In this document: positions 13,847 through 64,000 of the stretch, one piece after another
Layout: every line of letters starts with the position of its first letter
Numbering within the stretch: position 1 is the stretch's first letter
Origin: an uncultured Actinomycetes bacterium
GTDB lineage: Bacteria > Actinomycetota > UBA4738 > JBBDHU01
Reading direction: 5' to 3'
Assembly: GCA_964640385.1 (NCBI GenBank)
Contig: CAZXFL010000001.1
Span: 81,609-145,608 of the forward strand
Length of the DNA stretch: 64,000 nucleotides
Program-made: the position numbers and the translations under genes
Notes under the pieces: model-generated
What the model was told of the DNA's origin: nothing
The model's database searches: none
The model's input: only the letters and a program-made list of their open reading frames with translations

Positions 13847-14635
13847 TTAAGGACGCCTTCCCCAGTCTCCTCGCGCCCAGAGCCGGCCGGCTTCGATGAT
13901 CCGGTCGAGGAACCGGCGCGTGCGTTCCTCGCGCGGTTCGCTGAAGATCTGCTCGGGCGGCCCCTCCTCGAGGATCCTGCCCTGATCCAGGAAGCACACG
14001 CGGTTGGCGATGTCGCGGGCGAAATGCATCTCGTGGGTGGCGATCAGCATCGTCATGCCCGACGAGGCGAGTTCCCGGATGAGGGTGAGCACTTCGGCAA
14101 CCAGTTCAGGGTCAAGGGCGCTGGTCACTTCATCCAGCAGCAAGATGTCGGGGTCCATGGCCAGTGCGCGCACGATCGCGACCCGTTGCTGCTGTCCCCC
14201 GGAGAGGCGGTCCGGATATTCGTTCCGTTTGTCGGCCAGCCCGATCCGATCGAGGAGCTCGACCGCGCGCGCCTCGGCGGACGGCCTCGGCACCCCTCCA
14301 GCCTTGATCGGCCCTAGCGTCACGTTCCGCAGGACCGTCATATGCGGGAAGAGGTTGAACGCCTGGAAGACGATGCCGATGTGCCGGCGGATGGCGTTCA
14401 CATCGACACCCCGGGCGGTGATCTCCTGGCCCTCCACGACGATCCGCCCCTCATCGATCTCTTCGAGCAGGTTGATGCACCGCAGCAGCGTGGACTTGCC
14501 AGAGCCGGAGGCCCCGATCAGGCAGACGACTTCGTGTTCGTCGAGATCGAGATCGATACCTTTCAGAACTTCGAGCGTGCCGAACGACTTGCAGAGCCCA
14601 GAGATCGCGAGTGCCCTACCGCCCTCGGCACCCAT
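13847..14635 (-). CDS. polar amino acid ABC transporter ATP-binding protein
   Basis: [31 protein letters not shown]; ATG overlaps permease stop. Confidence 0.93.
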   Translation of the reverse strand: MGAEGGRALAISGLCKSFGTLEVLKGIDLDLDEHEVVCLIGASGSGKSTLLRCINLLEEIDEGRIVVEGQEITARGVDVNAIRRHIGIVFQAFNLFPHMTVLRNVTLGPIKAGGVPRPSAEARAVELLDRIGLADKRNEYPDRLSGGQQQRVAIVRALAMDPDILLLDEVTSALDPELVAEVLTLIRELASSGMTMLIATHEMHFARDIANRVCFLDQGRILEEGPPEQIFSEPREERTRRFLDRIIEAGRLWARGDWGRRP

Positions 14636-33800: not shown

Positions 33801-34366
33801 TTCACCTGACGCTGCTCGGCGATCCCGTGATCCTGCATCTCCAGGAAGTAGTTCCCCTTCCCGAATATGTCGCCGTACGCGCCCGCGACCTCGGCGGCCC
33901 GGTCGCGCTGGCCGGACAGCAGCAGCCGTTGGACCTCACCGGCCAGACACCCCGATAGCCCGATCAGGCCCTCCGCGTGCTCGGCCAGCAGCTCCTTGTC
34001 GATCCTCGGCCGGTGATAGAACCCCTCGAGATACGCGTCGGTGACCAGCCGCAGTAGGTTGCGGTACCCGGTCTCGTCTTTGACCAGGATCGTCAGGTGG
34101 CGGTACTTGGCTTCGGACTCACCCGGCTGGCGATCGAAGCGCGAGCCCGGCGCGACGTACGCCTCGACGCCCAGGATCGGCGTGACCCCGGCCTCGCGTC
34201 CCGCCCGATAGAACTCCAGCGCGCCGAACATCACGCCGTGGTCGGTCATCGCTAGGGCCGGCATCTGCAGCTCGCCGGCCTTCTCGAATAGCGGCCCGAT
34301 ACGGGACGCGCCATCCAGGAGCGAGTATTCGGTGTGCGTATGGAGGTGAACGAAGCCTTCGGCCAT
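30821..34366 (-). CDS. dnaE: DNA polymerase III alpha subunit
   Basis: PHP HLHTHTEYSLLDG, GRGSAAGS, MPDIDMDF, GLLKMDFLGL, YGFNASH, OB fold; no intein seen. Confidence 0.99.
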   Translation of the reverse strand: MAEGFVHLHTHTEYSLLDGASRIGPLFEKAGELQMPALAMTDHGVMFGALEFYRAGREAGVTPILGVEAYVAPGSRFDRQPGESEAKYRHLTILVKDETGYRNLLRLVTDAYLEGFYHRPRIDKELLAEHAEGLIGLSGCLAGEVQRLLLSGQRDRAAEVAGAYGDIFGKGNYFLEMQDHGIAEQRQVNPMMIELAATTGIPMVATNDLHYTERSDAQAHDILLCIQQQKKQSDTDRLRFDGDHFYLKSPQEMRQVFRELPDACDTTLAIAEMIEPIAELERVLVEGRTEFRVPHFDSPDGMDRDTYLRRLVDEGAVERYGEVTSEIRERIDHELGVISDMGFAGYFLIVWDLIRFARDSGIRVGPGRGSAAGSVVSYCLRITDLDPLRYSLIFERFLNPGRIQMPDIDMDFDERRRDEVIRYVAQKYGEDHVAQIITFQTIKGKQGIRDSARVLGFPASVGDRIAKMYPPAIMGRDYPIEQALELSPELKAAYLQEPEAQEIIDSARALEGLRREDSVHAAGVVIGDAPLVNYLPLKLAKDSRDDSRRIVTQFDMHGVEKLGLLKMDFLGLRNLSVIEDTVMHLRRRGVDLDIDHIPLDDAETYAMLCRADTTGVFQMESGGMRELIKSLAPDRFEDLMALVALYRPGPLNQGMHIEYAERKHGRRPVTYPHPDLEEILGGTYGVMVYQEQVMQLAVLVAGYSMAEADDLRSVMGKKKRDAVAKHRQKFTAGTIENGYPEKLARELFDLMEPFADYGFNASHACAYAYVAYQTAFLKAHHPVEFMAAMLTSVKGDKDKKPFYLYACRSMDIEVLPPDVNESGINFRPTTDGKPKIRYGLSAVRNVGEGAVQQIIAARDKYSAFSSFTDFCRKVDPGVLTKKVLESSVLAGAFDSMGYTRRGLIEGYDKVSGPIVSERKAEAAGQFSLFGGGGGTGDEAGATEIDESVLAGEEFDKRDFLRLEKEMLGQYVTDHPLLEVTDALIRQTDTEITHLGNKGDGDLVTVGGIIATVARRYTKKGEPYALFRVEDLAGGVSAVAFPNIYEQAPDLIAVDQMVVVTGRVDLRGRELQLRAVEVRPLETARGSGGGREAPSAPGDPVIVEVPAASCTNGMLAQLKEVLAANPGTTPVMMRLVGEAGVTPLRLGDGYKVDPTAGLLSELRVLLGPHAVRQEPVGGSTAA

Positions 34367-34407: not shown

Positions 34408-34427
34408 TGGGGAAAACCTGTGGGAAA
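34408..34427. promoter_or_regulatory. tandem degenerate DnaA-box-like pair upstream of dnaE
   Basis: TGGGGAAAA-cc-TGTGGGAAA, each 2 mismatches from TGTGGATAA. Confidence 0.35.
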
Positions 34428-34505
34428 TGACATCCTTGTGATTCGCGTGCCGCTCACTATATGCTCAGCCGGAGCGGCCTTTCAAGGGGGGAGGGACATC
34501 GAGGT

Positions 34506-35630
34506 ATGAGGCTGTCATATACGAGCCTCAACACCTACGAAACCTGCCCCGCCAAGTACCGCTTCTCCTACCTCGAACGGATCCCCGGCAAGGCCGCGCC
34601 GGCGCTGTCCTTCGGCGATTCATTGCACCAAGCCCTCTATCGCTTCCACAACCGGCCCGTGCCTGTCGCGCCGTCGCTCGATGAACTCCTCGAGACACTT
34701 GAGCACGTCTGGGTCTCCGATGGCTACGCCAGCGAGGGCGAGGAGCAGAGCTACTACGACCACGGGCGCCAGGTCCTGACCCAGTACCACGTCGAGAACG
34801 CGGACAGCTACCGGATCCCGGCGGCGGCGGAGTCGCGGTTCGCGATCGACGTCGAGGGCGTGCAACTGACCGGCGTCATCGACCGGATGGACCGGATCCC
34901 CGGCGGCGGCTACGAGATCATCGACTACAAGACCAACCGGCGCCTGCCGCCGCAGGCCCGCATCGATCAGGACCTCCAGCTATCCGTCTACTACCTCGCG
35001 GCGCGTGAGGTGTGGGGCATCGAACCCGAGCGCCTGACCCTGTACTACCTGCTCCCCGGCCAGCGGATGTCCACGACCCGCTCCTCCGCCGACGCCGACG
35101 AGTTGCGCCGCCGCATCGCGACGGCCGCCGAGCGGATCGAGGCCGGCAAGTTCGAAGCCCGCGAGAACCCCCTCTGCGACTGGTGCGACTTCCAGCGGCT
35201 GTGCCCGGTATTCCGGCACCGCTTCGAGCAGGAGGAAGGCGACCTGGCGCCGAAGATGACCGAGGTCGTAGACGAGTGGATCGGGCTCAAGCGCGAGGGC
35301 CGGCGCGTCTACAGGCGGATCGACGAGCTCGCTGGCCTGATCAACGCGTTCTGCGACGAGCACGGGTACAAGCGCCTCTTCGGAACCGACGGCGCAGCCA
35401 TCTCGCGCCGGACCCAGCACGTCTCGCAGCCGGACGAGGAGCGCCTCCGCCAGATCCTCGAACCGCTGGGACTGTGGGAGCAGATCCTGTCGGTCGACAC
35501 GCAGAAACTGAACGAGCTGATCGAGAGCCGCAGACTCCCGCCCGATGTCGAAGACGCCGTCCTCGCCTCGCGCGAAGAGGTCCGCACCCAGTTCGCCCTG
35601 TGGCTCAAGGAGCCGGCGAAGACCCGCTAG
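34506..35630 (+). CDS. PD-(D/E)XK RecB-family (Cas4-like) nuclease with 4-Cys Fe-S staple and C-terminal extension
   Basis: LSYTSL..Y.TCP, G..LH..L, GVIDRMD, IIDYKT, QLSVY, CDWCDFQRLC. Confidence 0.9.
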   Translation: MRLSYTSLNTYETCPAKYRFSYLERIPGKAAPALSFGDSLHQALYRFHNRPVPVAPSLDELLETLEHVWVSDGYASEGEEQSYYDHGRQVLTQYHVENADSYRIPAAAESRFAIDVEGVQLTGVIDRMDRIPGGGYEIIDYKTNRRLPPQARIDQDLQLSVYYLAAREVWGIEPERLTLYYLLPGQRMSTTRSSADADELRRRIATAAERIEAGKFEARENPLCDWCDFQRLCPVFRHRFEQEEGDLAPKMTEVVDEWIGLKREGRRVYRRIDELAGLINAFCDEHGYKRLFGTDGAAISRRTQHVSQPDEERLRQILEPLGLWEQILSVDTQKLNELIESRRLPPDVEDAVLASREEVRTQFALWLKEPAKTR

Positions 35631-53816: not shown

Positions 53817-55177
53817 GAACGCATCGCCTCCGCCAGCCGCTCGAGCCCGACGGCACGGGAACCCTTGAACAGGACGACGTCTCCCGGCCGGACCCAGTTC
53901 CGCACGTCCGCAAGCGCCTCGTCGGCGTCCTCATAGCTGGCAACGTCATCGGGCGGCGTTCCTTCGCGCAGCGCGGCGACCGCCATCTGGCGGGCCTCTT
54001 CGCCCACGGTGATCAGCCGGTCCACGTGCAGGCGGGCCGCCATGTCGCCGATCCGCTCGTGCTCCTCTCGCGAAACCGGACCCAGCTCACGCATCGTCCC
54101 GAGCACGGAACACAGCCTCGAGCCTCGAGCCAGATGGCGCGCGGCCTTCAGGGCCGAGGCCATCGACGTCGGATTCGCGTTGTAGGCATCGTTGATGACC
54201 CGCACGCCCTCGGGTGAGTCGAAGACCTCCATCCGCCAAGCCGAGCCTTTCGCTTCGGCCAGCGCCTCGGCGACCTCGGTCGCCGGGACCGCCAGCGTCA
54301 GTCCGACAGCTGCGGCGGCCAGCGCGTTGGACACCATGTGCTCGCCGGGGATCGTCAGACGCACCGGCACGCGTTCGTCGCCGGCGATCAGGTCGAACCG
54401 GGCGGTCCCATCGTCCTCCAGCCTCACCCCCGCGGCGCGAACGTCGGCATCGGCCTGCTCCCCGAAACGCACGACGCGCGCATCGGTCAACGTCTCGTAG
54501 GAGCTCACGACCGCGTCGTCCGCGTTCAAGATGGCCGTCCCGCCGGCATCCAGTGCGGCGATCAACTCGCCCTTGGCCTTCGCGATGTTCTCTGCAGAGC
54601 CGAACCGCTCCATGTGAGCGACACCCACGTTCGTGACGATCCCGACGTCGGGCGCAGCGACGCGGCAGAGCGCCTCGATGTGGCCGATCCCCCGGGCGCC
54701 CATCTCCGCGACGATGACGTCCGTTGCCTCCGTCGCCGCCAGCAGGGTCAGCGGAAGTCCGATCTCGTTGTTGAACGAACCCGGACTCGCGACGACCTCC
54801 AGACGCACCGACAGGACGGCCGACACCAGATCCTTCGTCGTCGTCTTCCCCGTCGAACCTGTCACCCCGATCACCGTCGCCGACATCGCGCGCCGTTCGT
54901 CCGCGGCGAGGCGTTGGAGCGCATCCTGTACGTCATCGACGACGATACTCGGGCCGGATGCCTCGTTGGTGCGGGTGACGACCGCCCCGGCAGCACCGCG
55001 TCCCAGCGCATCCGCGACGAAAGCGTGACCGTCGTCGTGTTCGCCCGCGAGGGCGAAGAAGAGGGCACCCTGCACCGCCTCGCGGCTGTCGATCGTCACC
55101 GACCGCACCTCGGCCTCATCGCCCGTCAGCAGTCCACCGATGGCGTTCGCGATGTCCGAGAGCGTCCGGCGTCTCAT
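53813..55177 (-). CDS. murF: UDP-MurNAc-tripeptide--D-Ala-D-Ala ligase
   Basis: IDSR, DGH, VTGSTGKTTTK, NNEIGLP, EMG, NDAYNANP, KGSR. Confidence 0.98.
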   Translation of the reverse strand: MRRRTLSDIANAIGGLLTGDEAEVRSVTIDSREAVQGALFFALAGEHDDGHAFVADALGRGAAGAVVTRTNEASGPSIVVDDVQDALQRLAADERRAMSATVIGVTGSTGKTTTKDLVSAVLSVRLEVVASPGSFNNEIGLPLTLLAATEATDVIVAEMGARGIGHIEALCRVAAPDVGIVTNVGVAHMERFGSAENIAKAKGELIAALDAGGTAILNADDAVVSSYETLTDARVVRFGEQADADVRAAGVRLEDDGTARFDLIAGDERVPVRLTIPGEHMVSNALAAAAVGLTLAVPATEVAEALAEAKGSAWRMEVFDSPEGVRVINDAYNANPTSMASALKAARHLARGSRLCSVLGTMRELGPVSREEHERIGDMAARLHVDRLITVGEEARQMAVAALREGTPPDDVASYEDADEALADVRNWVRPGDVVLFKGSRAVGLERLAEAMRS

Positions 55178-56631
55178 CCGTCTCCGTTCCGCAACGCCAG
55201 CAGCTCCTCGGCCGCGACGATCCGGTCGTCGAAGGGGATCGTGCGGTCGGCGAACTGTTGGCCGGTCTCGTGGCCCTTCCCGGCGATCACAACCACGTCG
55301 CCGGGGCCGGCAGCCCGCACGGCACCGCGGATCGCCAGCCGTCGGTCGGGTTCGATCTCGAAGGGACCTCCGCCCTCACGCGCACCGGGTTCGATGTCCG
55401 AGATGATCGCCGCTGGGTCCTCGGAACGAGGATTGTCGCTGGTCACGAAGGCCAGGTCGGCCAGGCTCGTCGCCGCACGGCCCATCAGCGGGCGCTTCGT
55501 GCGGTCACGATCGCCCCCGCAGCCGAGTACCACGATCACCTTGCCGTCCGTCAGCGGGCGGGCGGCGCGAAGGACGTTCTCCACGCTGTCGGGGGTGTGC
55601 GCGTAGTCGACCAGGACCGTGAATAGCTGTCCCTGCTCGACGGGTTCGAGCCGGCCCGGCACCCCGCGCAGCGCACCGATGCCTTCGACGATCGCGGCGT
55701 CCTCGATCCCCAGGCTCCGCGCCGCGGCGAACGCGGCCACACAATTCTCGACGTTGTAATGACCACGGAGCGGCGACATCACGACAACGCCATCGATCTC
55801 GAAGGAGACGCCCTCGGCCGTCGAGGACACCGCCGTCGCGCGGATGTCGGCGCCCGCGCCGGTCCCGTAGCTCAGCATCGGGATCTCGGCTTCCATGAGC
55901 CGCATCCCGTACTCGGAATCCATGTTGGTCACGCCGCGATCGGACAGCGCCGGCGTGAACAGCCTCGCCTTGGCGCCGAAATACTCCTCCATCGTCTCGT
56001 GGTAGTCCAGGTGATCCTGCGACAGGTTGGTGAACACCGCGCATGCGAACCGGATCCCGCCGACACGGTGCTGATCCAGCCCGTGAGACGACACCTCCAT
56101 CGCGACGGCGTGGACGCGCGCGTCCCTCATCCGGCGGAGCAGCCGGTGCAGGTCGGGCGCCTCGGGTGTCGTGCGCGGCGACGGGAACGGCTCGCCGCCG
56201 ATGCGGACGCCGGTCGTGCCGATCACCCCCGGCCCCATTCCGGCAGCCCGGAAGATGGACTCGAGCAGGTACGTGGTCGTCGTCTTCCCGTTCGTGCCGG
56301 TGATGCCGGCGACCGACAGCTCGTGCGACGGGTGCCCGAAGAACACCGCCGAGACCGGCCCCATCGCCTCGCGGACCGACGGAACGCGCGCCTGTGGGAC
56401 GTCAACATCGACGAACCGCTCCACCAGCATGGCCACGGCCCCCGCGCTGTAGGCAGACGGCGCGAAGGTGTGACCGTCCACCACCTGACCCGGGGCGCAG
56501 AAGAAGAGGGTTCCTCGGCGGCACTCGTGCGAGTCGTAGGCGACGTCGGTGATGGGGACGGAGGGGTCGCCCCGCATCTCGACGGATGGGAGCGATGCAA
56601 CCAGGTCGTTGAGCGTCTTGATGTCGGCCAC
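55174..56631 (-). CDS. murE: UDP-MurNAc-dipeptide--meso-DAP ligase
   Basis: GTNGKTT, TTP, MEVSSH, DHLDYH, DYAHTPD, DNPR (DAP-type), AGKGHE; start taken as GTG 56631. Confidence 0.96.
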   Translation of the reverse strand: MADIKTLNDLVASLPSVEMRGDPSVPITDVAYDSHECRRGTLFFCAPGQVVDGHTFAPSAYSAGAVAMLVERFVDVDVPQARVPSVREAMGPVSAVFFGHPSHELSVAGITGTNGKTTTTYLLESIFRAAGMGPGVIGTTGVRIGGEPFPSPRTTPEAPDLHRLLRRMRDARVHAVAMEVSSHGLDQHRVGGIRFACAVFTNLSQDHLDYHETMEEYFGAKARLFTPALSDRGVTNMDSEYGMRLMEAEIPMLSYGTGAGADIRATAVSSTAEGVSFEIDGVVVMSPLRGHYNVENCVAAFAAARSLGIEDAAIVEGIGALRGVPGRLEPVEQGQLFTVLVDYAHTPDSVENVLRAARPLTDGKVIVVLGCGGDRDRTKRPLMGRAATSLADLAFVTSDNPRSEDPAAIISDIEPGAREGGGPFEIEPDRRLAIRGAVRAAGPGDVVVIAGKGHETGQQFADRTIPFDDRIVAAEELLALRNGDG

Positions 56632-56723
56632 GGCAGGGATGTGCCGCCTCCTCCATCGTCCGGGAGGGGCTAGCGACCCGTATCGTACCGCGTCCCCGGG
56701 TGTCCGCCGAGCACGCTGCGCGT

Positions 56724-58454
56724 TCATCGCTGGGCGGTCGGGGGCAGGTCGGGACGGCCGCCCGCGGGTATCCGCAACCGGGCGATCGCCTCCTTCCCGA
56801 ACTGCTGGAACAGCGGCGCGGCGGCGAGCCCCCCGTACTGCTGCGCCGGTTCGTCCAGGATGACCGCGATGACGATCTGGGGGTCGTCCGCAGGGAGGAA
56901 TCCGATGAACGACGCCATGTACCGATGCGAGTAGCCGCCCCCGTCCTCGCGCGGCTTCTGCGCGGTGCCGGTCTTGCCCGCCACCCAATACCCTTCGATC
57001 GCGGCCTCGGTCCCCGTCCCCCGGCTCGAGGAGACGACGTTCGCCAGCATCCCGGTGACGATATCCGCCGTCTCCTTCGAGATCACCCGACGCGTCGGCG
57101 AGCCCGGCATCGGGTGCACGGTCCCGTCGGCATCCCGGGTCGCGCGGACGAGCCGCGGCTGGACCCACACGCCGTCGTTCGCGACCGTCGCGTACACCGA
57201 CGCCATCTGCAGCGGCGTCACGGACACGCCTTGCCCGATCGGGATGTTCAGCATGGTCGCGCCGGACCACTGGTACGGCTCGGGAAGGATCCCGCCCGAC
57301 TCGTACGGGAAGTCGATGCCGGTATCGCGGCCGAACCCGAACTTCGAGAGATACGTCGCCATCTCGTCCTCGCCGAGCTCGCCACCGATCATGATCGTCC
57401 CGACATTGCTCGACTCGGTGATGATGTCCCCCAGCGTCATCGTCTCGGGCGCGTGCGGATGTGAATCGTGCACGGTGATGGGGTTCCCGTCGCCGAAGTC
57501 CTTCGAGATGCTGTCGTAGACGCGGAACTTCTCGGTCAGCCCGACCGCGTGTTCCTCGACCGCTGCCGCCGCCGTGATGACCTTGTTCACCGATCCCGGC
57601 TCGAACAGGGCCTGGACCGCGGGGTTGCTCAGCTCGACCTCCTTGGCCCGATCCAGTTCGTTCGGGTCGAACCACGGGTCCGAGGCCATCGCCAAGATAT
57701 CGCCCGTCTCCGGGTCCATCGCGATCAGGGTGCCGCCATCCGCCCGTTCCCGCTTCACGGTCTCGGCCAGGGCGAGCTGCGCCCGGTACTGCAGGGGAGC
57801 GTCGATCGTCGAGATGATGTCCTGCCCCGGCATCGGGGGGGTCACCACCTGGATGCCTTGCGGGATCTGGTGGCCGGCGGGGTCGATCTCCTCCTGCCGC
57901 TCCCCCGGCGTGCCGGCGAGGATGCCTTCGTATTGCAGTTCCAGCCCGGCCAGTCCCTGTCCGTCGATCCCCACGAACCCGATCACCTGCGGGGCGCCCA
58001 TGTCGCCCGCGGGATAGTGACGCTTGCTCTCCTCGAGGAACCCGATCCCCGGGATGTTCATCGCGGCGATCTGCTCGGCGACCTCGCGATCCACCTGCCG
58101 GGCCACGTAGACGAACGAGGCCTCTCCCTTGAGGGTCTGCGCCAGCTCCATCGGCTTGATGCCCAGCGGTCCGGACATCCGGACCGCCGCAGCCATCGGA
58201 TCCGGGATGAACCGCTGGTCCGCGTAGATGGCCTTCGCGTCCAGAGAAAGAGCCAGATCGCGCTCGTTCCGGTCGAGGATCGCGCCGCGGACCGCGGGGA
58301 GGGGAACCGTGCGGACCCGCTGCTGCATCGCCTTGCTCTCGTACCTGCCCCGGTCGACGACCTGGAGGTACCCCAGCCGGACGGTGACCGCTACGAGCCC
58401 GATCGCGAAGACGATCAGGAGTGCGCCGAGACGACCGAGCGACGGCTCCCTCAT
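56724..58454 (-). CDS. ftsI: class B penicillin-binding protein (FtsI-like)
   Basis: RG.I.DR, R.YP.G, G..GLE, EPGSVNK (SxxK), SSN, KTGTA. Confidence 0.95.
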   Translation of the reverse strand: MREPSLGRLGALLIVFAIGLVAVTVRLGYLQVVDRGRYESKAMQQRVRTVPLPAVRGAILDRNERDLALSLDAKAIYADQRFIPDPMAAAVRMSGPLGIKPMELAQTLKGEASFVYVARQVDREVAEQIAAMNIPGIGFLEESKRHYPAGDMGAPQVIGFVGIDGQGLAGLELQYEGILAGTPGERQEEIDPAGHQIPQGIQVVTPPMPGQDIISTIDAPLQYRAQLALAETVKRERADGGTLIAMDPETGDILAMASDPWFDPNELDRAKEVELSNPAVQALFEPGSVNKVITAAAAVEEHAVGLTEKFRVYDSISKDFGDGNPITVHDSHPHAPETMTLGDIITESSNVGTIMIGGELGEDEMATYLSKFGFGRDTGIDFPYESGGILPEPYQWSGATMLNIPIGQGVSVTPLQMASVYATVANDGVWVQPRLVRATRDADGTVHPMPGSPTRRVISKETADIVTGMLANVVSSSRGTGTEAAIEGYWVAGKTGTAQKPREDGGGYSHRYMASFIGFLPADDPQIVIAVILDEPAQQYGGLAAAPLFQQFGKEAIARLRIPAGGRPDLPPTAQR

Positions 58455-58879
58455 CCGGCCCCTGCCGTGAGGGCATCACGGGAGGGGCCGCTGCCGGATG
58501 CGCCTGATGCGGCGTCCCGGACGTTGATGATCTCGATGCTCGGTGGGTACACGAGTTTGCTGCGCTTCGCCCACTTGTCGATCCGCTCCTCGGACATCAA
58601 GACGGCGATGTGCGCGCGTAGCTCGCGGTTGGATCGGGTCAACGTGCTCTGTTGTTCGGCGAGGTCGCGCATCTGGAACGCCACCTGCGCCGTCAGCGCG
58701 TACGTCACGGCGATCCCGACGACCATCGTCCCGACCAGCACCGCCGTGAGGACCCAGAACCCCACCGACCGTCGGCGCGACCCGCGTGGGACCACCCGCA
58801 AGGGCGGGCGAGAGGGGGTGGTCCGGGCCGGCGGCCGAACGGCCTGCCGGGCCCGGACCTGTCGCGCGGGGGCACTCAT
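58451..58879 (-). CDS. ftsL: FtsL-like cell division protein
   Basis: basic N-terminus, one TM, coiled coil; coupled between rsmH and ftsI. Confidence 0.75.
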   Translation of the reverse strand: MSAPARQVRARQAVRPPARTTPSRPPLRVVPRGSRRRSVGFWVLTAVLVGTMVVGIAVTYALTAQVAFQMRDLAEQQSTLTRSNRELRAHIAVLMSEERIDKWAKRSKLVYPPSIEIINVRDAASGASGSGPSRDALTAGAG

Positions 58880-59757
58880 GATCCGTTCATCTCATCAACC
58901 CGCTGCGCCGCTCGCAGCTTCGCGCTGCGCGCTCGGGGGTTCTCCGACACCTCGTTCTCGCCCGGCCGAAGCGGCTTCTTGGTCAGGATCTTCAGGCGCT
59001 GCTGTTCGCGCTCGCCCACCAGGTACCGCTTCACGATCCGGTCCTCCACCGAGTGGTAGGCGATCACTACGATGCGGCCACCGGGAGCGAGGAGTCCGAC
59101 CGCCTGAGGAAGGGAGGCGGCGAGCTCCTCGGTCTCCCGGTTGACCGCGATGCGGAGCGCCTGGAACGTCCGACGCGCGGGGTGGGGGCCCCCCGGGCGT
59201 CTCCCGACCGCACTCGCCACCACCGACGTCAACTGGTCGGTGGTCTCGATCGGCGCGCGACCACGCGCGCGCACGATGGCCCGTGCGACGATCCTTGCTC
59301 GGCGCTCCTCTCCGAAGTCCCGGATGATGGCTGCCAGCTCTTCCTCCGAGGCTTCGTTGACCAACTCCATCGCCGTCCGGCCCTCCTGGCCCATCCGCAT
59401 GTCCAATGGGCCGAAGGAGCGGAAGCTGAATCCACGTTCGGGTTCGTCCAGTTGCATGGACGAGACGCCCAGGTCGTAGAGCACTCCGTCCACAGGCGCG
59501 ACGTCCGGGGGCTGGGAGAACCGGGCAACGGTGAGAGCAGATCTGGATCCAAAACGTGCGAGGCGTTCCGACGCGAGGTCGATGGCGCGCGGGTCCCGGT
59601 CGACGCCGATGAGCTCCTCGGTGCCGGCATCGAGCAGCGCCTGTGCGTGGCCACCCGCACCGACCGTCATGTCCAGGACGCGACGCCGTCCGCCCAGGAA
59701 GTCCAGGACCTCCCGCGCCATGACCGGCACGTGCGATGGCTGCGATCCCGTGTCCAC
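58876..59757 (-). CDS. rsmH: 16S rRNA m4C1402 methyltransferase
   Basis: HVPV, GAGGH, DLGVSSMQLD, RGFSF, LDMRM, FQALRIAVN, NPRARSAKLR. Confidence 0.98.
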   Translation of the reverse strand: MDTGSQPSHVPVMAREVLDFLGGRRRVLDMTVGAGGHAQALLDAGTEELIGVDRDPRAIDLASERLARFGSRSALTVARFSQPPDVAPVDGVLYDLGVSSMQLDEPERGFSFRSFGPLDMRMGQEGRTAMELVNEASEEELAAIIRDFGEERRARIVARAIVRARGRAPIETTDQLTSVVASAVGRRPGGPHPARRTFQALRIAVNRETEELAASLPQAVGLLAPGGRIVVIAYHSVEDRIVKRYLVGEREQQRLKILTKKPLRPGENEVSENPRARSAKLRAAQRVDEMNGS

Positions 59758-59771
59758 CCGTCACGTCCTAC

Positions 59772-59888
59772 TCACCCCAGCAGGTGGGCCATCAACAGAC
59801 CGAGGCCCACGTACAGGGAAACGGTGATCGCGGACCACGCGAGCAACGTGAAGCTCTCGCGCGTCTCTTTCGTCAGTTGCTCTTTCAC
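59772..59888 (-). CDS. unannotated 38-aa single-TM small protein (MKEQLTKETRESFTLLAWSAITVSLYVGLGLLMAHLLG)
   Basis: GTG directly after mraZ TAG, GGGGA upstream, 33/38 codons end in G/C, fills the mraZ-rsmH gap. Confidence 0.7.
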   Translation of the reverse strand: MKEQLTKETRESFTLLAWSAITVSLYVGLGLLMAHLLG

Positions 59889-60311
59889 CTAGTCCCCCAA
59901 CGTTCCGGACTGGTACGCGCTGTTGTGAACGTTCCAATAGCGCTCCCAGGCATCGGCGTCCCAGATCTCCATACGGTCCTCGACGCCGACGACGACCGCC
60001 TCTTTGCCGATGCTCGCCAGTTTCCGGAGCCGCTGCGGGATGAGCAGCCGGCCCTGCGAATCGAGTGATGCCGATTCGGCCGAACCGAAGAACATGCGCG
60101 CGAGCGCCCGTCCCTGCTGATCCGAGAGCGGCCGGTCGCGAAGCTCCGCGATCCGGCGGTCCCACTCGTCCGCGGGGAAGACGAACACGCACCCGTCCTG
60201 GCCAAGGGTGAGGGTGGCCCCGTCGGACAGGATCTCCCTGAAGCCCTTCGGCAGGGACACCCGACCCTTCGGATCCAATTGATAGCGATGCGTACCTAGA
60301 AGCCCGGCCAC
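59889..60311 (-). CDS. mraZ: dcw transcriptional repressor MraZ
   Basis: LDPKGR and LDSQGR repeats, EIW; GTG 60311 after AGGGGAGG SD. Confidence 0.97.
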   Translation of the reverse strand: MAGLLGTHRYQLDPKGRVSLPKGFREILSDGATLTLGQDGCVFVFPADEWDRRIAELRDRPLSDQQGRALARMFFGSAESASLDSQGRLLIPQRLRKLASIGKEAVVVGVEDRMEIWDADAWERYWNVHNSAYQSGTLGD

Positions 60312-60333
60312 AGCGCGACTTCCTCCCCTTCTC

Positions 60334-60379
60334 CTCCACTGGCGCTCCACTTTATCCCACTATTACTCCACCTTGTCAA
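60334..60379 (-). promoter_or_regulatory. mraZ/dcw promoter with four MraZ-binding repeats
   Basis: GTGGAG/GTGGGA/GTGGAG/GTGGAG at 10-11 bp period, overlapping TTGACA (60379-60374) and TAAAGT (19-nt spacer). Confidence 0.85.
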
Positions 60380-60470
60380 GCGTAAAGAGTCCAGGCAGAG
60401 ATCCGTGCCTGGAAGCGGTTTGGGGCGGAGGGGTCTGTTGGTGGAGCCTCCCGGAGGGAGGTTCGGTCAG

Positions 60471-60953
60471 CTAGGCGAGGTAGTTCTCCCAGCCGGGCTC
60501 GAGTTTGCCCAACGACAGACGGAACCCGTCGGACGGGAAGAACGGCTGGCGGGCCAGGGACAGACCGGACTCGTGGGGGAGGCGATTCTCCTTCTTCGAG
60601 TTGCAGCGCCGGCACGCGGCCACGACATTGTCCCAGGTATGGGTGCCTCCCTTGGACTTCGGGTTGACGTGGTCGACGTTCTCGGCAGGTTTGCCGCAGT
60701 ACTGGCAAGCCCAGCCGTCCCGGGCGAAGACGGCTCTTCGCGTGAGGGCAGCGTGGGCGCGGTACGGGACCCTCACGAAATACCGCAGGCGCACGACGGA
60801 CGGCGCCTCGATCTCGAGACGCTCCGACCGGAAGATCATCCCGTTCGAGGCGACGACGTCAGCCTTCTCCTTGAGGACGAGCACCACCGCCCGCCTCGCG
60901 GGCACCACCGCGAGCGGCTGATCGGAACCGTTGAGCACGAGGGCTCTTCCCAT
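60471..60953 (-). CDS. HNH endonuclease (McrA-like, LVLN...PSVVRL family)
   Basis: CQYCG, VDHVNP..KGG, W.N, CRRCN; own -10 TATACT at 60993-60988. Confidence 0.92.
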   Translation of the reverse strand: MGRALVLNGSDQPLAVVPARRAVVLVLKEKADVVASNGMIFRSERLEIEAPSVVRLRYFVRVPYRAHAALTRRAVFARDGWACQYCGKPAENVDHVNPKSKGGTHTWDNVVAACRRCNSKKENRLPHESGLSLARQPFFPSDGFRLSLGKLEPGWENYLA

Positions 60954-61018
60954 CGGTAGTTGACCGCCCTTCCTGGGACTAGGAGCGAGTATAGCCAGCG
61001 ACTATCGATAGAAGGTGC

Positions 61019-61048
61019 TTGACGACTGCGAATCACAATGGTGTTATT
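61019..61048 (+). promoter_or_regulatory. promoter TTGACG-17-TGTTAT overlapped by McdR box AATCACA-ATGG-TGTTATT
   Basis: 61031-61048 fits AATnACA-N4-TGTnATT exactly; McdR-like gene lies about 150 bp away. Confidence 0.75.
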
Positions 61049-61055
61049 CATGCTT

Positions 61056-61158
61056 GAGGGCGGCGGTCATCGTCGGATCCCGGTCAGAGGGCGCCTTGAG
61101 AGCGATAAAGGGGCCGCGCGGGGTGTCCGAAGTGTTGGGATCCGAGACCGCCGCCTTC
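61056..61158 (+). ncRNA. candidate ~105-nt rod-shaped small RNA
   Basis: three nested helices of 13, 11 and 10 bp; seven G-U pairs form only on the + strand; begins just after the promoter. Confidence 0.6.
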
Positions 61159-61202
61159 CCATCTCTGCGTTTCGCGATCAAGGTTTCGGAGGCGGATCGG
61201 TC

Positions 61203-61721
61203 TTAGCCGGCGGATCGTCGCCGCGTACCGCCTGGGGTCGGGGAGTGCTGTTCCACGTCCTTCGCGGCGCTCCTGAGCGTACGGATGAACCGGTCGCGAT
61301 CCTGACGGAACTCGGAGACGCCGGACTCCACACTCTGTGCGATCTCGTCGATGGCCACGAAGAAAGCCATCTGGCCCTCACGCAGGGCGTCTAGGACCTC
61401 CCCGTCGCGCCGGCAGATCTTGAAGATGGACTGGCCGTCTGTGACCAGCCGAACCTCGGCCAGGTGATCGTCGAGCCCGGCCGTCTTGTTCAGGTAGTCC
61501 CAGCTGCGACGGACCTTCTGCAGCGACATACCCCCATCGAGCAGGGATTTCACGACCTTCAGGGCGATCAGATCGCGGAAGGAATAGAGGCGCGGGACCC
61601 CGGGGCGGCCGCCGGTCTGTTGGACCGACGGCTGGACCAAGCCGATGCTGTCCCAATACCTGAGCTGACGTGGGGTACAACCTGTGAACTTCGTAGCTTG
61701 GTGTGCAGTGAAACCTTCCAT
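61203..61721 (-). CDS. MerR-family regulator, Rv1830/McdR-like
   Basis: G.T.RQL.YW..GLV.PS, RLYSFRD...LKVVK.LLD.G.SLQ..R, L..GQ..F signature. Confidence 0.85.
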   Translation of the reverse strand: MEGFTAHQATKFTGCTPRQLRYWDSIGLVQPSVQQTGGRPGVPRLYSFRDLIALKVVKSLLDGGMSLQKVRRSWDYLNKTAGLDDHLAEVRLVTDGQSIFKICRRDGEVLDALREGQMAFFVAIDEIAQSVESGVSEFRQDRDRFIRTLRSAAKDVEQHSPTPGGTRRRSAG

Positions 61722-61901
61722 CCAGCGCGCTCCCGACGTACTCCATGCAACCGATACTTCATGCCGGGATGCCGACCGCGCGGGCGTGCGGCCTCCGGGC
61801 GTCTGGGGAAGGTGCCGCTCTTTGTATCGCGTGACGCGCCGCGACGCAAGGCCGGAATGGCGATGAGTGACAGTAGGGAGTCTATCGCGCGAGCCAGCGA
61901 G

Positions 61902-62270
61902 TTACGACTGCGGGTTCTCGCCCGGCGGGAAACGCCCGGTCAGACGGGCCAACAGCGCCGGCAACGAGAAGCGGCCTTCGCGAACCATCGTCCGGATCTG
62001 ATCCTGGCCGAGTTGTTTCAGCGACCGGTAACACAACAACGCGGCGACCAACATAACGACGAATCCGGCGAGCGCGATCCATATCGACACGAAGAACAGC
62101 AGCAGCAACACGAATCCGGCGAGGAAGGCGAGCGAGGCCCAGCGGATCCGCCGCGCGAGATGCGAATACAGCGAGGTGCTGCTGACGGTCTCGACGAACC
62201 GCGGGTCGTCCTCGGACAGGCGGCGTTCGATGTCTTCGAGGATCCGTTGTTCGTGTTCGGAAAGAGGCAA
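61902..62270 (-). CDS. DUF3040 membrane protein
   Basis: MPLSEHEQR.L..IE..L..DDP.F then two TM; TTG start, GGAGG SD, TATAAT upstream. Confidence 0.92.
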   Translation of the reverse strand: MPLSEHEQRILEDIERRLSEDDPRFVETVSSTSLYSHLARRIRWASLAFLAGFVLLLLFFVSIWIALAGFVVMLVAALLCYRSLKQLGQDQIRTMVREGRFSLPALLARLTGRFPPGENPQS

Positions 62271-62299
62271 CGCTTCCTACCTCCGTATCGGTAGAACCA

Positions 62300-63517
62300 T
62301 TATAGGAACCCTCGCGCGTTCCGGGGAGGGGGCGTACCCGAGCCCCGTTCGCGTCCCCGCTCCAGTAAGGTCGCCGGCATCGCTGCATCGCGCCCGAACC
62401 GCGCCTCGATCCGGTCGACAACCCGGTCCACATCGCCCCAGCGTTCGCCCCGGAGCAGGGCGAGCTGCTCGGCGCCGGCGGACACGAGGCCCGTCGCCGC
62501 CACCCCGATCAGCCGGATGCGCCGGCGGGCACCGGGCAGCGACCGGAACAGATCGGATGCCGCCGCGGAGATCTCGGAGCTCCCGTCGGTGGGAGCCGCG
62601 AGGGTCCGGGAACGGGTCAGCGTCGTGAAGTTCGCCAGACGCGCCTTCAGCGTGACCGTCCGGGCACGATAGCCGCCCTTGCGCAGACGCGAGGCGACCT
62701 TCCGCGAGAGCGCGAGGATCTCGCGCAGCAGTTCGGCTTCGTCGTCCAGGTCGTATTCGAATGTCTCCTCGTGGCTGAGGGATCTCGGCGCCTCGTAGGG
62801 CACGACGTCGCGCTCGTCGTCGCCGCGGGACAGCGCGAGCAGGTGCTCGGCTTGCGAGTCCCCTAGCAGCCGCGTCAGCACCGCCTTGGGGGTCTGCGCC
62901 AGTTCCTCGACCGTCCGCACGCCGAGCTTGGACAGCGCATCAACGGTCTTGGCCCCCGCCCCCCAGAGCGCGCCCACCGGCAGCGGCTCCAGGAACGCGT
63001 CCACACCGTCCGCGGGCACGTGCAGCAGCCCGTCGGGCTTGGCCTGCTCGGAGGCAAGTTTGGCCAGGAACTTGTTGGACGCGACCCCGACCGAGCACGT
63101 GATCCCGAGTTCGGTTTGCACCTCGGCCCGGATCTTCGCGCCGATCTCGACCGGCTGGCCGAACAGCTTCACCGCACCACCGACGTCCAGGAACGCCTCG
63201 TCCAGCGAGATCGGCTCGACGAGCGGCGTGTGCGCCATCAGGATCTCGCGGAACCGGTTCGAGTACGCGCGGTAGGACGTGAAGTCCGGCGCGATGAAGA
63301 CGGCGTCGGGACACAAGCGGCGCGCGCGGACGATGGGCATCGCCGAGTGGATCCCGAACTTCCGGGCTTCGTAGGACGCGGCGGAGACGACACCGCGCGT
63401 GCCGGTGCCGCCGACGACGACGGGCTTGCCCTCGAGCGACGGATCCTTGTGGATCTCGACGGACGCGTAGAACGCGTCGAGGTCCACATGTAGGATCGGT
63501 TCGGGTGGCCTAGCCAT
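62300..63517 (-). CDS. dinB: DNA polymerase IV
   Basis: HVDLDAFYASVE, ASYEAR, SLDEAFLD, NKFLAKLAS..KPDG, little-finger domain. Confidence 0.98.
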   Translation of the reverse strand: MARPPEPILHVDLDAFYASVEIHKDPSLEGKPVVVGGTGTRGVVSAASYEARKFGIHSAMPIVRARRLCPDAVFIAPDFTSYRAYSNRFREILMAHTPLVEPISLDEAFLDVGGAVKLFGQPVEIGAKIRAEVQTELGITCSVGVASNKFLAKLASEQAKPDGLLHVPADGVDAFLEPLPVGALWGAGAKTVDALSKLGVRTVEELAQTPKAVLTRLLGDSQAEHLLALSRGDDERDVVPYEAPRSLSHEETFEYDLDDEAELLREILALSRKVASRLRKGGYRARTVTLKARLANFTTLTRSRTLAAPTDGSSEISAAASDLFRSLPGARRRIRLIGVAATGLVSAGAEQLALLRGERWGDVDRVVDRIEARFGRDAAMPATLLERGRERGSGTPPPRNARGFL

Positions 63518-63998
63518 CGTTGCGCGATCGCATGCGCCGAACCGCCCGCAGGCCCAGCAACCCCACCAGGACCATCGCCACTCCGACGCCGATCAGGACG
63601 GCTTGTACCGCATCGGTGCTGAGCCCGGAAACGATGATCAAGAGCGATCCGACCAGCGCCATGAACTCCTGCAGCGAGAACAGCACCGCGGACACGCGGC
63701 CGCGTTCCTCTTCTTCGACGACGCGCTGGACCAGCGCCAACGCCGCCGGGAACATGTACGCGAGCCCGGCGCCCATGAAGGCGGCGCCGATGAAAGAAAG
63801 GGCGTAGATCGCCGGACCGGCGTAAAGCAGCAGGCCGATCCCGGACGTCGTGACGCCGGCGCCCACCAGGAGCAGCTCTTTTCCGGAAGCGTTCTTGAAC
63901 CTCGCGACGGCGATCGCTCCCAGGATCGCGCCGAACCCGTGAGCCGACCACAGGTACAGCACCGCCTCGTCGCCCTTTCCCAGCACGTAGCGGATGTA
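63510..63998 (-). CDS. MFS transporter, C-terminal part (runs off the window)
   Basis: multiple TM segments, Q..V....RGRV motif; frame open to window end. Confidence 0.8.
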   Translation of the reverse strand, partial: YIRYVLGKGDEAVLYLWSAHGFGAILGAIAVARFKNASGKELLLVGAGVTTSGIGLLLYAGPAIYALSFIGAAFMGAGLAYMFPAALALVQRVVEEEERGRVSAVLFSLQEFMALVGSLLIIVSGLSTDAVQAVLIGVGVAMVLVGLLGLRAVRRMRSRNDG

Positions 63999-64000
63999 GA

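What the first reader, a model, noticed from the sequence alone, without database searches (positions are those of the whole stretch)
60953..61721. McdR box driving an unannotated ~105-nt structured RNA beside its own McdR-like regulator, upstream of the dcw cluster
Seen: TTGACG (61019-24) and TGTTAT (61042-47) with a 17-nt spacer, overlapped by AATCACA-ATGG-TGTTATT (61031-48). Directly after it is a rod hairpin: gagggcggcggtc/gaccgccgccttc, tcggatcccgg/ttgggatccga, gggcgccttg/cggggtgtcc, with seven G-U pairs that form only on +. No credible ORF follows. A Rv1830-like MerR gene converges on it. Known (recalled): mycobacterial McdR (Rv1830) binds AATnACAnnnnTGTnATT and controls whiB2, division and DNA-repair genes; it normally sits in the garA-Rv1828-Rv1829 cluster, not between DUF3040 and mraZ. 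Inference: a whiB2-style promoter drives a small RNA here instead of a WhiB protein, giving a regulator-sRNA-HNH module that may control cell division. Read-through would be antisense to the regulator's 3' end and could give feedback.
Basis: partly seen in the sequence, partly recalled or inferred. Interest (0 to 1): 0.85.

Follow-up and report, generated by a model that had tools for sequence, protein, structure and literature searches.

The report
New conserved small RNA beside dcw cluster
The hairpin is a real, previously undescribed structured small RNA gene, conserved across an uncultured order of Actinomycetota, whose promoter carries the binding motif of a known cell-division and DNA-repair regulator.

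Summary
TTGACG (61019-24), TGTTAT (61042-47), the box AATCACA-ATGG-TGTTATT (61031-48) and a 39-pair rod hairpin (61056-61158) with 7 G-U pairs are all there.

The element is a single-copy structured RNA on the + strand. A covariance model finds one copy in each of 79 of 151 genomes of the window's order and in 0 of 140 other genomes of the phylum. In 67 published sequences, 24 of 36 pairs show compensatory changes. Rfam has no match.

The box matches the published mycobacterial McdR motif exactly. It occurs 4 times in this genome against 0 for the control, once in front of a WhiB gene.

- The MerR gene touches the RNA only in this genus, which lost a moxR operon. Elsewhere it lies 4.5-5 kb away.
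- The syntenic McdR ortholog is a different gene.
- The RNA does not replace WhiB.

The constant neighbour is the divergent HNH gene, in 71 of 75 loci. Function is inferred: probably a McdR-repressed small RNA. The main rival is a moxR leader. No expression data exist.

The parts
61054..61163 (+). Structured small RNA (covariance-model hit). Rod of P1 (61056-61068/61146-61158), P2 (61073-61083/61135-61145) and P3 (61089-61098/61119-61128), with an apical domain.
   Evidence: CM R2 hit at G000 C1:142662-142771, 88.8 bits. Fold. Covariation.
61110..61123 (+). 14-nt core GGGGCCGCGCGGGG at the apex, with an inner 8-nt palindrome CCGCGCGG. It is nearly invariant across the family.
   Evidence: In the alignment print it is unchanged in 66 of 67 rows (L095 has one substitution). 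Also seen.
61019..61024 (+). -35-like hexamer TTGACG
   Evidence: A TTGnnn hexamer is found in 60 of 65 family members, 17 nt before TGTNAT in 52.
61042..61047 (+). -10-like hexamer TGTTAT (TGTAAT in most relatives). It lies 4-8 nt before the base of P1.
   Evidence: TGTAAT in 52, TGTGAT in 9 and TGTTAT in 2 of 65. It fails the consensus scan because it has no A at position 2.
61031..61048 (.). McdR-type operator AATCACA-ATGG-TGTTATT, overlapping the -10
   Evidence: Exact match to AATnACAnnnnTGTnATT (PMC9040748). 4 sites in the genome against 0 for the control.
61159..61175 (+). Pyrimidine-rich tail after P1; possible 3' end (inferred)
   Evidence: In the 16 nt after P1, 66 family members average 25.5% T and 70% pyrimidine, against 15.2% and 50% background. 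No canonical U tract.
60988..60993 (-). TATACT, a -10-like element of the divergent HNH gene (AGTATA on +)
   Evidence: GAGTNTA[GC] lies upstream of the RNA promoter in 59 of 75 loci. Sequence.
60471..60953 (-). 160-aa HNH protein gene, the constant divergent neighbour, directly upstream of mraZ
   Evidence: Pfam HNH_5/HNH. Divergent from the RNA in 71 of 75 loci. Found in 107 of 151 genomes of the phylum.
61203..61721 (-). MerR-family gene, a paralog of the syntenic McdR ortholog. It converges on the RNA in this genus only.
   Evidence: Pfam MerR_1. Paralogy and synteny.
34426..34443 (.). Second exact box in the window, between a dnaE-like gene and a PD-(D/E)XK nuclease gene (same putative regulon)

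Best explanation
The finding is a separate small RNA gene of about 105-115 nt on the + strand (about 61054-61163).

Shown:
- A conserved TTG-N17-TGTAAT-type promoter-like element ends 4-8 nt before the base of a long rod hairpin.
- The hairpin's stems co-vary.
- Its apex carries a nearly invariant 14-nt G/C element.
- The gene is single-copy and is shared by most families of one uncultured Actinomycetota order.
- It always sits back-to-back with the HNH-mraZ-dcw genes.

Inferred:
- A McdR-type MerR regulator binds the 18-bp dyad over the -10 and represses transcription, as McdR does at whiB2 in mycobacteria. Either of the two paralogs could be that regulator.
- The RNA therefore belongs to the same regulon as the WhiB gene and the DNA-repair and replication genes.
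- Transcription ends mostly in the pyrimidine-rich tail after the rod.
- The RNA acts in trans through its invariant apex, by base pairing or by binding a protein.
For: Conservation: blastn of the spacer hits 18 of 61 relatives over window 61013-61165 only. CM R2 finds exactly one copy in 79 of 151 order genomes. Shorter variants exist in three genomes that the filtered search missed.

Structure:
- In 67 published sequences, 90.0% of cells are paired.
- 24 of 36 pairs show changes on both sides (206 cells).
- 0 of 500 shuffles reach these values.
- Slid controls pair at 54% or less.
- The 18-sequence set agrees.

Strand: reverse-strand CM hits reach 22.5-29.4 bits, against 46.5-134.6 bits forward. 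P3 holds conserved G-U and U-G pairs, for example U-G in 59 and C-G in 7 of 67.

Promoter: TGTAAT in 52 of 65, TTGnnn in 60 of 65, a 17-nt spacer in 52, and the -10 ending 4-8 nt before P1 in 57 of 65.

Operator:
- The box matches the published McdR motif exactly.
- It has 4 genomic sites against 0 for the control.
- One site lies about 20 nt before a WhiB gene, Pfam 99.7 bits.
- Another lies between dnaE and a nuclease gene.
- One-mismatch sites lie at recA, dnaB and smc.
- The motif is order-wide: 40 of 41 genomes, control 0 of 41.
- A syntenic McdR ortholog is present.

Independence from moxR:
- The window's genus lacks the moxR operon.
- It still keeps the RNA and promoter at 95% identity over 165 nt, while the 3' flank no longer aligns.
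- Four loci keep the RNA with gaps of 830-930 nt to moxR.
- About 20 of 75 loci have an ECF-like GGGAAC motif between the RNA and moxR.
Against: - There is no expression evidence.
- The -10 lacks the A at position 2, and the consensus scan calls no promoter and no terminator here.
- The tail is C/U-rich rather than a U tract.
- In 71 of 75 loci moxR follows on the same strand, at a median of about 139 nt. That layout is typical of a cis leader.
- The box is exact in only 9 of 65 members. It has 1 mismatch in 22, 2 in 30 and 3 in 4. Regulator control may therefore be lineage-specific, and conservation of the right half could reflect the -10 alone.
- No target or protein partner is identified.
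- Pairing in the apex is unresolved between two models.
- The covariation counts rest on alignments fitted to the model.
Confidence: 0.55

Rival explanations
1. The RNA is a cis-acting 5' leader of the moxR-DUF58 operon. It would be made from the boxed promoter and would control stability, termination or translation of the downstream mRNA. In the window's genus it would be a leftover after the operon was lost.
For: moxR follows on the same strand in 71 of 75 loci, at a median of about 139 nt (range 58-926) after the rod. There is no canonical U-tract terminator.
Against: - The RNA and promoter are kept at 95% identity in two species of the genus that lacks the operon, while the flank has diverged.
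- Family f7 has the HNH and moxR genes adjacent without the RNA.
- About 20 of 75 loci hold an ECF-like promoter motif between the RNA and moxR.
- Four loci have gaps of 830-930 nt.
- No alternative pairing with the moxR ribosome-binding site was looked for.
Confidence: 0.3
2. The hairpin is only the intrinsic terminator of the minus-strand MerR gene, or a bidirectional terminator.
For: In this window the hairpin starts 45 nt after the MerR stop codon.
Against: - In the relatives whose coordinates I compared, the MerR ortholog lies 4.5-5 kb from the hairpin, which stays next to HNH.
- G-U pairs and CM scores favour the + strand.
- The terminator scan finds none on either strand here.
- An invariant 14-nt apex is not expected of a terminator.
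Confidence: 0.02
3. The RNA works with the neighbouring HNH protein, as a guide, scaffold or inhibitor of that nuclease.
For: RNA and HNH are adjacent and divergent in 71 of 75 loci. The HNH domain is most similar to IscB/Cas9-type HNH domains (NCBIfam 53.7 bits; PDB TbaIscB, E 4.7e-9).
Against: - The protein is present in 107 of 151 genomes of the phylum, while the RNA is in 0 of 140 outside the order.
- 18 HNH loci from other orders have no CM hit and no box.
- f7 genomes without the RNA keep HNH at 75-77% identity, within the 73-83% range of RNA-bearing genomes.
- The protein has 160 aa and no RuvC domain.
- The RNA is on the opposite strand, and Rfam gives no HEARO match.
Confidence: 0.05
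4. The conservation is at the DNA level only: divergent promoters plus a protein-binding palindrome, with no functional RNA.
For: The core contains the palindrome CCGCGCGG, and the region holds two back-to-back promoter-like elements.
Against: Compensatory changes occur in 24 of 36 pairs across P1-P3. G-U pairs are strand-specific, and forward CM scores far exceed reverse ones.
Confidence: 0.03

Closest known systems
McdR/ResR (Rv1830) operator at the whiB2 promoter of mycobacteria (PMC9040748, passages read; PMC10336103, passages read)
   Same: Identical 18-bp motif AATnACA-N4-TGTnATT over the -10/start region. The same genome has a WhiB gene with the motif and a MerR gene in the garA/Rv1828/Rv1829-type cluster.
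   Different: The driven gene is a non-coding RNA rather than whiB2. The organism belongs to a distant uncultured order. There are two paralogous MerR candidates, and binding is untested. Most family members carry 1-3 mismatches.
6C RNA (Rfam RF01066), an actinobacterial small RNA linked (recalled) to cell division and DNA replication
   Same: A small, highly structured actinobacterial RNA with conserved loop sequences and a possible cell-cycle link.
   Different: No sequence or structure match. 6C was not found in this genome. 6C loops are C-rich (recalled), whereas this apex is G-rich.
mraW RNA motif (Rfam RF01746; name and context recalled)
   Same: A structured RNA near the start of the actinobacterial dcw cluster.
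   Different: The Rfam E-value scan of 55000-64000 gives no match to any family but chance microRNA hits. This RNA is on the strand opposite to mraZ/rsmH, beyond the HNH gene.
IscB omega-RNA / HEARO (HNH-associated RNAs)
   Same: A structured RNA next to a gene with an IscB/Cas9-like HNH domain.
   Different: Opposite strand, a 160-aa protein without RuvC, a phylum-wide protein against an order-restricted RNA, and no Rfam hit.
Rod-shaped housekeeping RNAs (SRP 4.5S RNA, 6S RNA)
   Same: A single-copy rod hairpin of about 100 nt with internal loops.
   Different: The SRP RNA is found elsewhere (C11, 74.5 bits). The 6S model gives no hit, and this RNA has no large central bubble.

Membership tests
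McdR-type operator / regulon | 18-bp dyad AATnACAnnnnTGTnATT with a 4-nt spacer | tested here: met
   61031-61048 matches with 0 mismatches. The motif wording was taken from PMC9040748.
McdR-type operator / regulon | Motif over-represented and placed in promoter regions, including whiB2 | tested here: met
   4 sites against 0 for the control in G000. One lies about 20 nt before a WhiB gene. 40 of 41 relatives carry the motif, control 0 of 41.
McdR-type operator / regulon | Motif conserved at this promoter across the RNA family | tested here: inconclusive
   0 mismatches in 9, 1 in 22, 2 in 30 and 3 in 4 of 65. The right half coincides with the -10.
McdR-type operator / regulon | Bound and repressed by the regulator | not testable with these tools
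   Needs EMSA or a reporter assay.
McdR (Rv1830) ortholog, for the window's MerR gene 61203-61721 | MerR-type HTH | tested here: met
   Pfam MerR_1, 48.4 bits.
McdR (Rv1830) ortholog, for the window's MerR gene 61203-61721 | Position after the Rv1829-like bifunctional nuclease gene in the FHA/MerR cluster | tested here: not met
   That position is held by the paralog at C1:30394-30846, 36% identical. The window's gene lies between DUF3040 and the RNA.
McdR (Rv1830) ortholog, for the window's MerR gene 61203-61721 | Sequence closer to Rv1830 than to other MerR proteins | not tested
   No tool gave me the Rv1830 sequence. NCBIfam gives only weak HspR and other sub-threshold hits.
Any Rfam 15 family | Covariance-model score at or near gathering | tested here: not met
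   The only hit at the site is mir-1288, 20.5 bits against a gathering score of 70, E 2.3.
Intrinsic terminator | G+C stem followed by a T run | tested here: not met
   The scan finds no site at 61056-61175 on either strand. The tail is 25.5% T.
Sigma-70-type promoter | TTGACA-like and TATAAT-like hexamers 16-18 nt apart, with A at position 2 and T at position 6 of the -10 | tested here: inconclusive
   The scan rejects it for lack of A2. TTG-N17-TGTAAT is conserved in 52 of 65 and lies 4-8 nt before P1. A TAATYN reading gives a spacer of 19 nt, or 17 nt in family f6 (read).
Structured non-coding RNA | Compensatory base changes, strand asymmetry and no conserved ORF | tested here: met
   Indels are not in threes.

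The most novel reading that the evidence does not exclude
The RNA is the partner of the adjacent, phylum-wide 160-aa HNH protein, whose HNH domain is IscB/Cas9-like. Together they would form a minimal RNA-directed or RNA-regulated nuclease at the head of the cell-division cluster. The invariant GGGGCCGCGCGGGG apex would serve as the protein handle or the target-recognition element, and the whole would be switched by the McdR/WhiB2 checkpoint circuit.
Probability: 0.04. Interest if true: 0.85.

Novelty: new member of a known kind. Interest (0 to 1): 0.55.

Why it matters
If the reading is right, the McdR-WhiB2 circuit has an RNA output. In mycobacteria that circuit couples cell division to error-prone DNA repair and has been linked to drug resilience. 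It would also be far older than the mycobacteria, because the motif, the regulator cluster and a boxed WhiB gene are all present in a distant, uncultured Actinomycetota order.

The RNA is well defined. It has a promoter-like element, a co-varying rod and an invariant apex, with at least 79 genomes and at least 119 named MAG contigs behind it. It could be added to Rfam and tested in a heterologous host.

The finding also corrects the local annotation. The MerR gene is next to the RNA only because this genus lost an operon, so the two do not form a conserved regulator-target pair.

Tried and rejected
- Rfam E-value scan of 55000-64000: only chance microRNA-type hits.
- SRP, 6S and 6C identities: rejected.
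- MerR-terminator reading: rejected by synteny.
- RNAalifold on a plain MAFFT alignment recovered only P1, because the middle stems were misaligned. I therefore built CM R1 from 8 well-aligned sequences with a hand-mapped structure, realigned all loci, and built R2. The counts lean towards that structure for this reason.
- Expression: the look-up of sequencing runs listed no RNA holder.
- Wider homologs: CM with filters off on 18 HNH loci of other orders plus L057, L059, L062 and L063 gave a best E of 0.13, which is noise. No box with 1 mismatch or fewer was found in the 18 other-order loci.
- Apex structure: an alignment-free test checked a hairpin CCU(U)/(A)AGG just 5' of the core. Pairs 1-3 were mostly kept, but pair 4 was G-A in 25 of 52 distinct sequences. 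Some anchors in that script were mis-picked. The rival pairing with GGGG varies on one side only. This is left unresolved.
- Literature: 'moxR' + 'RNA motif' + 'Actinobacteria' returned 0 papers. 'mraZ' + 'HNH endonuclease' + 'small RNA' returned 0 papers. These two searches are the only basis for saying I found no prior description.
- Supplements of PMC9040748 (Tables S3 and S4, the lists of motif-bearing genes) are closed. They may list further McdR targets that bear on this.
- The HNH structure was not predicted, and no target prediction was run.
- In one search, four loci fell outside the HNH count. L078 and L098 sit at contig ends. L094 was oriented wrongly by my script. L093 has no HNH within its 1.2-kb flank.
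- Unpublished genomes:
  - The tallies include genomes flagged unpublished (G007, G015, G027, G030, G031, G039, G049, G052, G069, G148, G162, G178, G206, G238, G273, G299).
  - Alignment A4 and the 18-locus counts include L011 (G007), L016 (G015) and L017 (G039).
  - Alignment A5 and searches exclude them.
Full report
**The locus.** All credible genes around the finding lie on the minus strand:
- dinB, 62300-63517
- a DUF3040/SCO2097-family gene, 61902-62270
- a MerR-family gene, 61203-61721
- a 249-nt spacer, 60954-61202
- a 160-aa HNH gene, 60471-60953
- mraZ, rsmH, ftsL, ftsI and murE

The finding is the spacer.

**The observation.**
- The + strand folds into one rod of 39 pairs at -66.7 kcal/mol (z -3.41). 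The - strand reaches only -52.0 kcal/mol.
- Seven of the pairs are G-U.
- The consensus scan calls neither a sigma-70 promoter nor a terminator here. The -10 candidate lacks the A at position 2.
- Rfam 15, scanned permissively over 55000-64000, gives only a chance mir-1288 hit at 20.5 bits.

**It is a conserved, structured, strand-specific RNA.** blastn of the spacer found matches in 18 of 61 related genomes. The matches were confined to about 61013-61165, which is the promoter-like region plus the hairpin.

A plain alignment supported only the outer stem. I therefore built a covariance model from eight well-aligned sequences, realigned, and rebuilt it.
- On 18 sequences, three of them from unpublished genomes, 92.2% of cells pair and 16 of 36 pairs show compensatory changes.
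- On 67 published sequences, 90.0% of cells pair and 24 of 36 pairs (206 cells) show changes on both sides. None of 500 shuffles reaches this, and sliding the partners drops pairing to 54% or less.
- P1 and P2 carry most of the covariation. P3 varies mainly through G-U/G-C and A-U/G-U exchanges, which pair only on the + strand.
- Reverse-strand model hits score 22.5-29.4 bits, against 46.5-134.6 bits forward.

These alignments are fitted to the model, so the counts lean towards it.

**Distribution.**
- The model finds exactly one copy in 79 of 151 genomes of the window's class draw. All of these belong to the eight families of its order. Family f7 scored 0 of 10.
- It finds no copy in 140 genomes of the phylum outside the order.
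- Three 'negative' f4 genomes turned out to hold a shorter variant with the same box and core. Two f7 genomes have HNH next to moxR with nothing between them.
All are metagenome-assembled 'Actinomycetota' or 'uncultured Actinomycetes' records, and one is labelled Solirubrobacterales. The lineage therefore appears to have no cultured member.
- The 14-nt core GGGGCCGCGCGGGG is unchanged in 66 of the 67 aligned rows.

**Promoter and box.** These counts cover the 65 family members with a recognisable -10.
- The hexamer is TGTAAT in 52, TGTGAT in 9 and TGTTAT in 2.
- A TTGnnn hexamer precedes it in 60, at 17 nt in 52.
- The -10 ends 4-8 nt before model position 1 in 57. A transcript would therefore begin at the base of P1.
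- In family f6 the TTGACG is 2 nt closer, so TAATTA at 17 nt is an alternative -10 there. The same reading gives TAATYN at 19 nt in the other families (read).

The dyad matches the motif reported for mycobacterial McdR, AATnACAnnnnTGTnATT. That motif lies around the whiB2 start site and mediates repression. Changing its spacer length abolishes regulation (PMC9040748, passages; PMC10336103, passages).

In this genome the motif occurs four times and the reversed control never. The four sites are:
- this RNA
- a site about 20 nt upstream of a 75-aa WhiB protein, Pfam 99.7 bits
- window 34426-34443, between a dnaE-like gene and a PD-(D/E)XK nuclease gene
- a site after a sigma/anti-sigma gene pair

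One-mismatch sites lie upstream of recA, dnaB and smc, after crgA, and near nrdR. The motif is present in 40 of 41 relatives, and the control in none.

A McdR-type regulon is therefore credible here. At the RNA promoter, however, the box is exact in only 9 of 65 members. It has one mismatch in 22, two in 30 and three in 4. The common f4 form is AATCCCA-N4-TGTAATC.

**The MerR gene.** The genome has two paralogs, 36% identical.
- The second paralog, at C1:30394-30846, follows a bifunctional-nuclease (BFN) gene. Upstream lie an FHA protein gene and another MerR gene. This is the arrangement of garA-Rv1828-Rv1829-Rv1830, whose gene order I recalled. It is the syntenic McdR ortholog.
- The window's gene has orthologs of 63-81% identity in most of the 61 relatives searched, all 61 of which gave a match. 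In the genomes whose coordinates I compared, they lie 4.5-5 kb from the RNA.
- The stretch between them holds moxR, a DUF58 gene and further genes. moxR follows the RNA on the same strand in 71 of 75 published loci, at a median of about 139 nt.
- The window's genome has only a 54%-identical MoxR paralog elsewhere.

The MerR gene therefore abuts the RNA only because this genus lost that operon. That applies to 2 of 18 first loci, and to 2 of 75 published loci.

**The constant neighbour.** The HNH gene is divergent from the RNA in 71 of 75 loci. Of the four exceptions, two are contig ends, one was mis-oriented by my script, and one has no HNH within its flank.
- The protein is 73-83% identical across the order.
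- It is found as a mostly single-copy gene in 107 of 151 genomes of the phylum.
- Its HNH domain is nearest to IscB/Cas9-type domains.
- 18 HNH loci from other orders hold neither the RNA nor the box.
- f7 genomes keep HNH at 75-77% identity without the RNA.

The protein therefore does not depend on the RNA.

**How it most likely works.**

Shown: a single-copy, co-varying, + strand rod RNA with a conserved promoter-like element and an invariant apex.

Inferred:
- It is a separate small RNA. A McdR-type MerR protein binding over the -10 represses it, which places it in the WhiB and DNA-repair regulon.
- It ends in the C/U-rich tail after P1. In the 16 nt after P1, T is 25.5% against 15.2% background, and pyrimidines are 70% against 50%.
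- It acts through its apex.

The best argument for independence from moxR is the natural deletion. Two species of the genus keep the RNA and promoter at 95% identity over 165 nt, while the sequence beyond no longer aligns. Four loci keep the RNA despite gaps of 830-930 nt to moxR. About 20 of 75 loci have an ECF-like GGGAAC-N15-18-[CG]GT[CT] motif between the RNA and moxR.

The main rival, a moxR leader, remains plausible at about 0.3 because of the 71 of 75 co-orientation.

No RNA run was listed, so nothing here bears on expression. Pairing in the apex is unresolved. The CCU(U) after P3 can pair either with the core's second GGGG or with the (A)AGG just before the core.

**Comparison and novelty.** The RNA matches no Rfam family. 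It is not the SRP RNA, which lies on C11, nor 6S or 6C. Two literature searches found nothing on such an RNA. It is a new RNA family of a familiar kind, a regulator-controlled small structured RNA. Its link to the McdR motif is new but untested.

Noticed in passing
window 34426-34443: A second exact McdR-type box, AATGACATCCTTGTGATT, lies between a dnaE-like gene (32924-34366, -) and a PD-(D/E)XK nuclease gene (34461-35630, +). It suggests the regulon covers DNA repair and replication genes, as reported for mycobacteria.
   Followed up: partly
window about 60331-60379 (- strand): Upstream of mraZ there is a TTGACA hexamer followed by four GTGG[AG][GA] direct repeats 10-11 nt apart. This looks like an MraZ operator array (read; the MraZ box is recalled).
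   Followed up: no
G000 C12:13922-13939 and the gene ending at 14184: An exact box lies about 20 nt upstream of a 75-aa WhiB-family protein (Pfam 99.7 bits). The McdR-whiB2 pairing known from mycobacteria therefore seems conserved in this distant order.
   Followed up: partly
G000 C9:51209-51226: An exact box lies downstream of a sigma/anti-sigma gene pair and is followed by about 250 nt without a clear ORF. This could be another non-coding target.
   Followed up: no
G000 C13:5966, C3:136429, C22:11664, C6:28978, C33:5256: One-mismatch boxes lie upstream of recA, dnaB and smc, directly after crgA, and near nrdR.
   Followed up: no
Relatives' loci, for example L060, L096 and L100-L103, between the RNA and moxR: About 20 of 75 loci carry GGGAAC-N15-18-[CG]GT[CT], an ECF-sigma-like promoter motif, in front of moxR.
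   Followed up: partly
window 61164-61202 compared with relatives: The window's genus lacks the moxR-DUF58 operon that separates the RNA from the MerR-DUF3040-dinB block elsewhere in the order. Only a 54%-identical MoxR paralog remains, on C12.
   Followed up: yes
G000 C1:26071-30846 (outside the window): A cluster of FHA protein, MerR (Rv1828/FtsR-like; names recalled), a peptidase-like gene, hpt, a BFN nuclease and a McdR-like MerR. It mirrors the mycobacterial garA-Rv1830 region.
   Followed up: partly
G009 C4:19099-19116: In one f8 genome with no RNA match, an exact box sits just past the 3' end of the HNH gene (C4:19179-19655), on the side where mraZ lies in this window. I did not check that mraZ is there in G009.
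   Followed up: no
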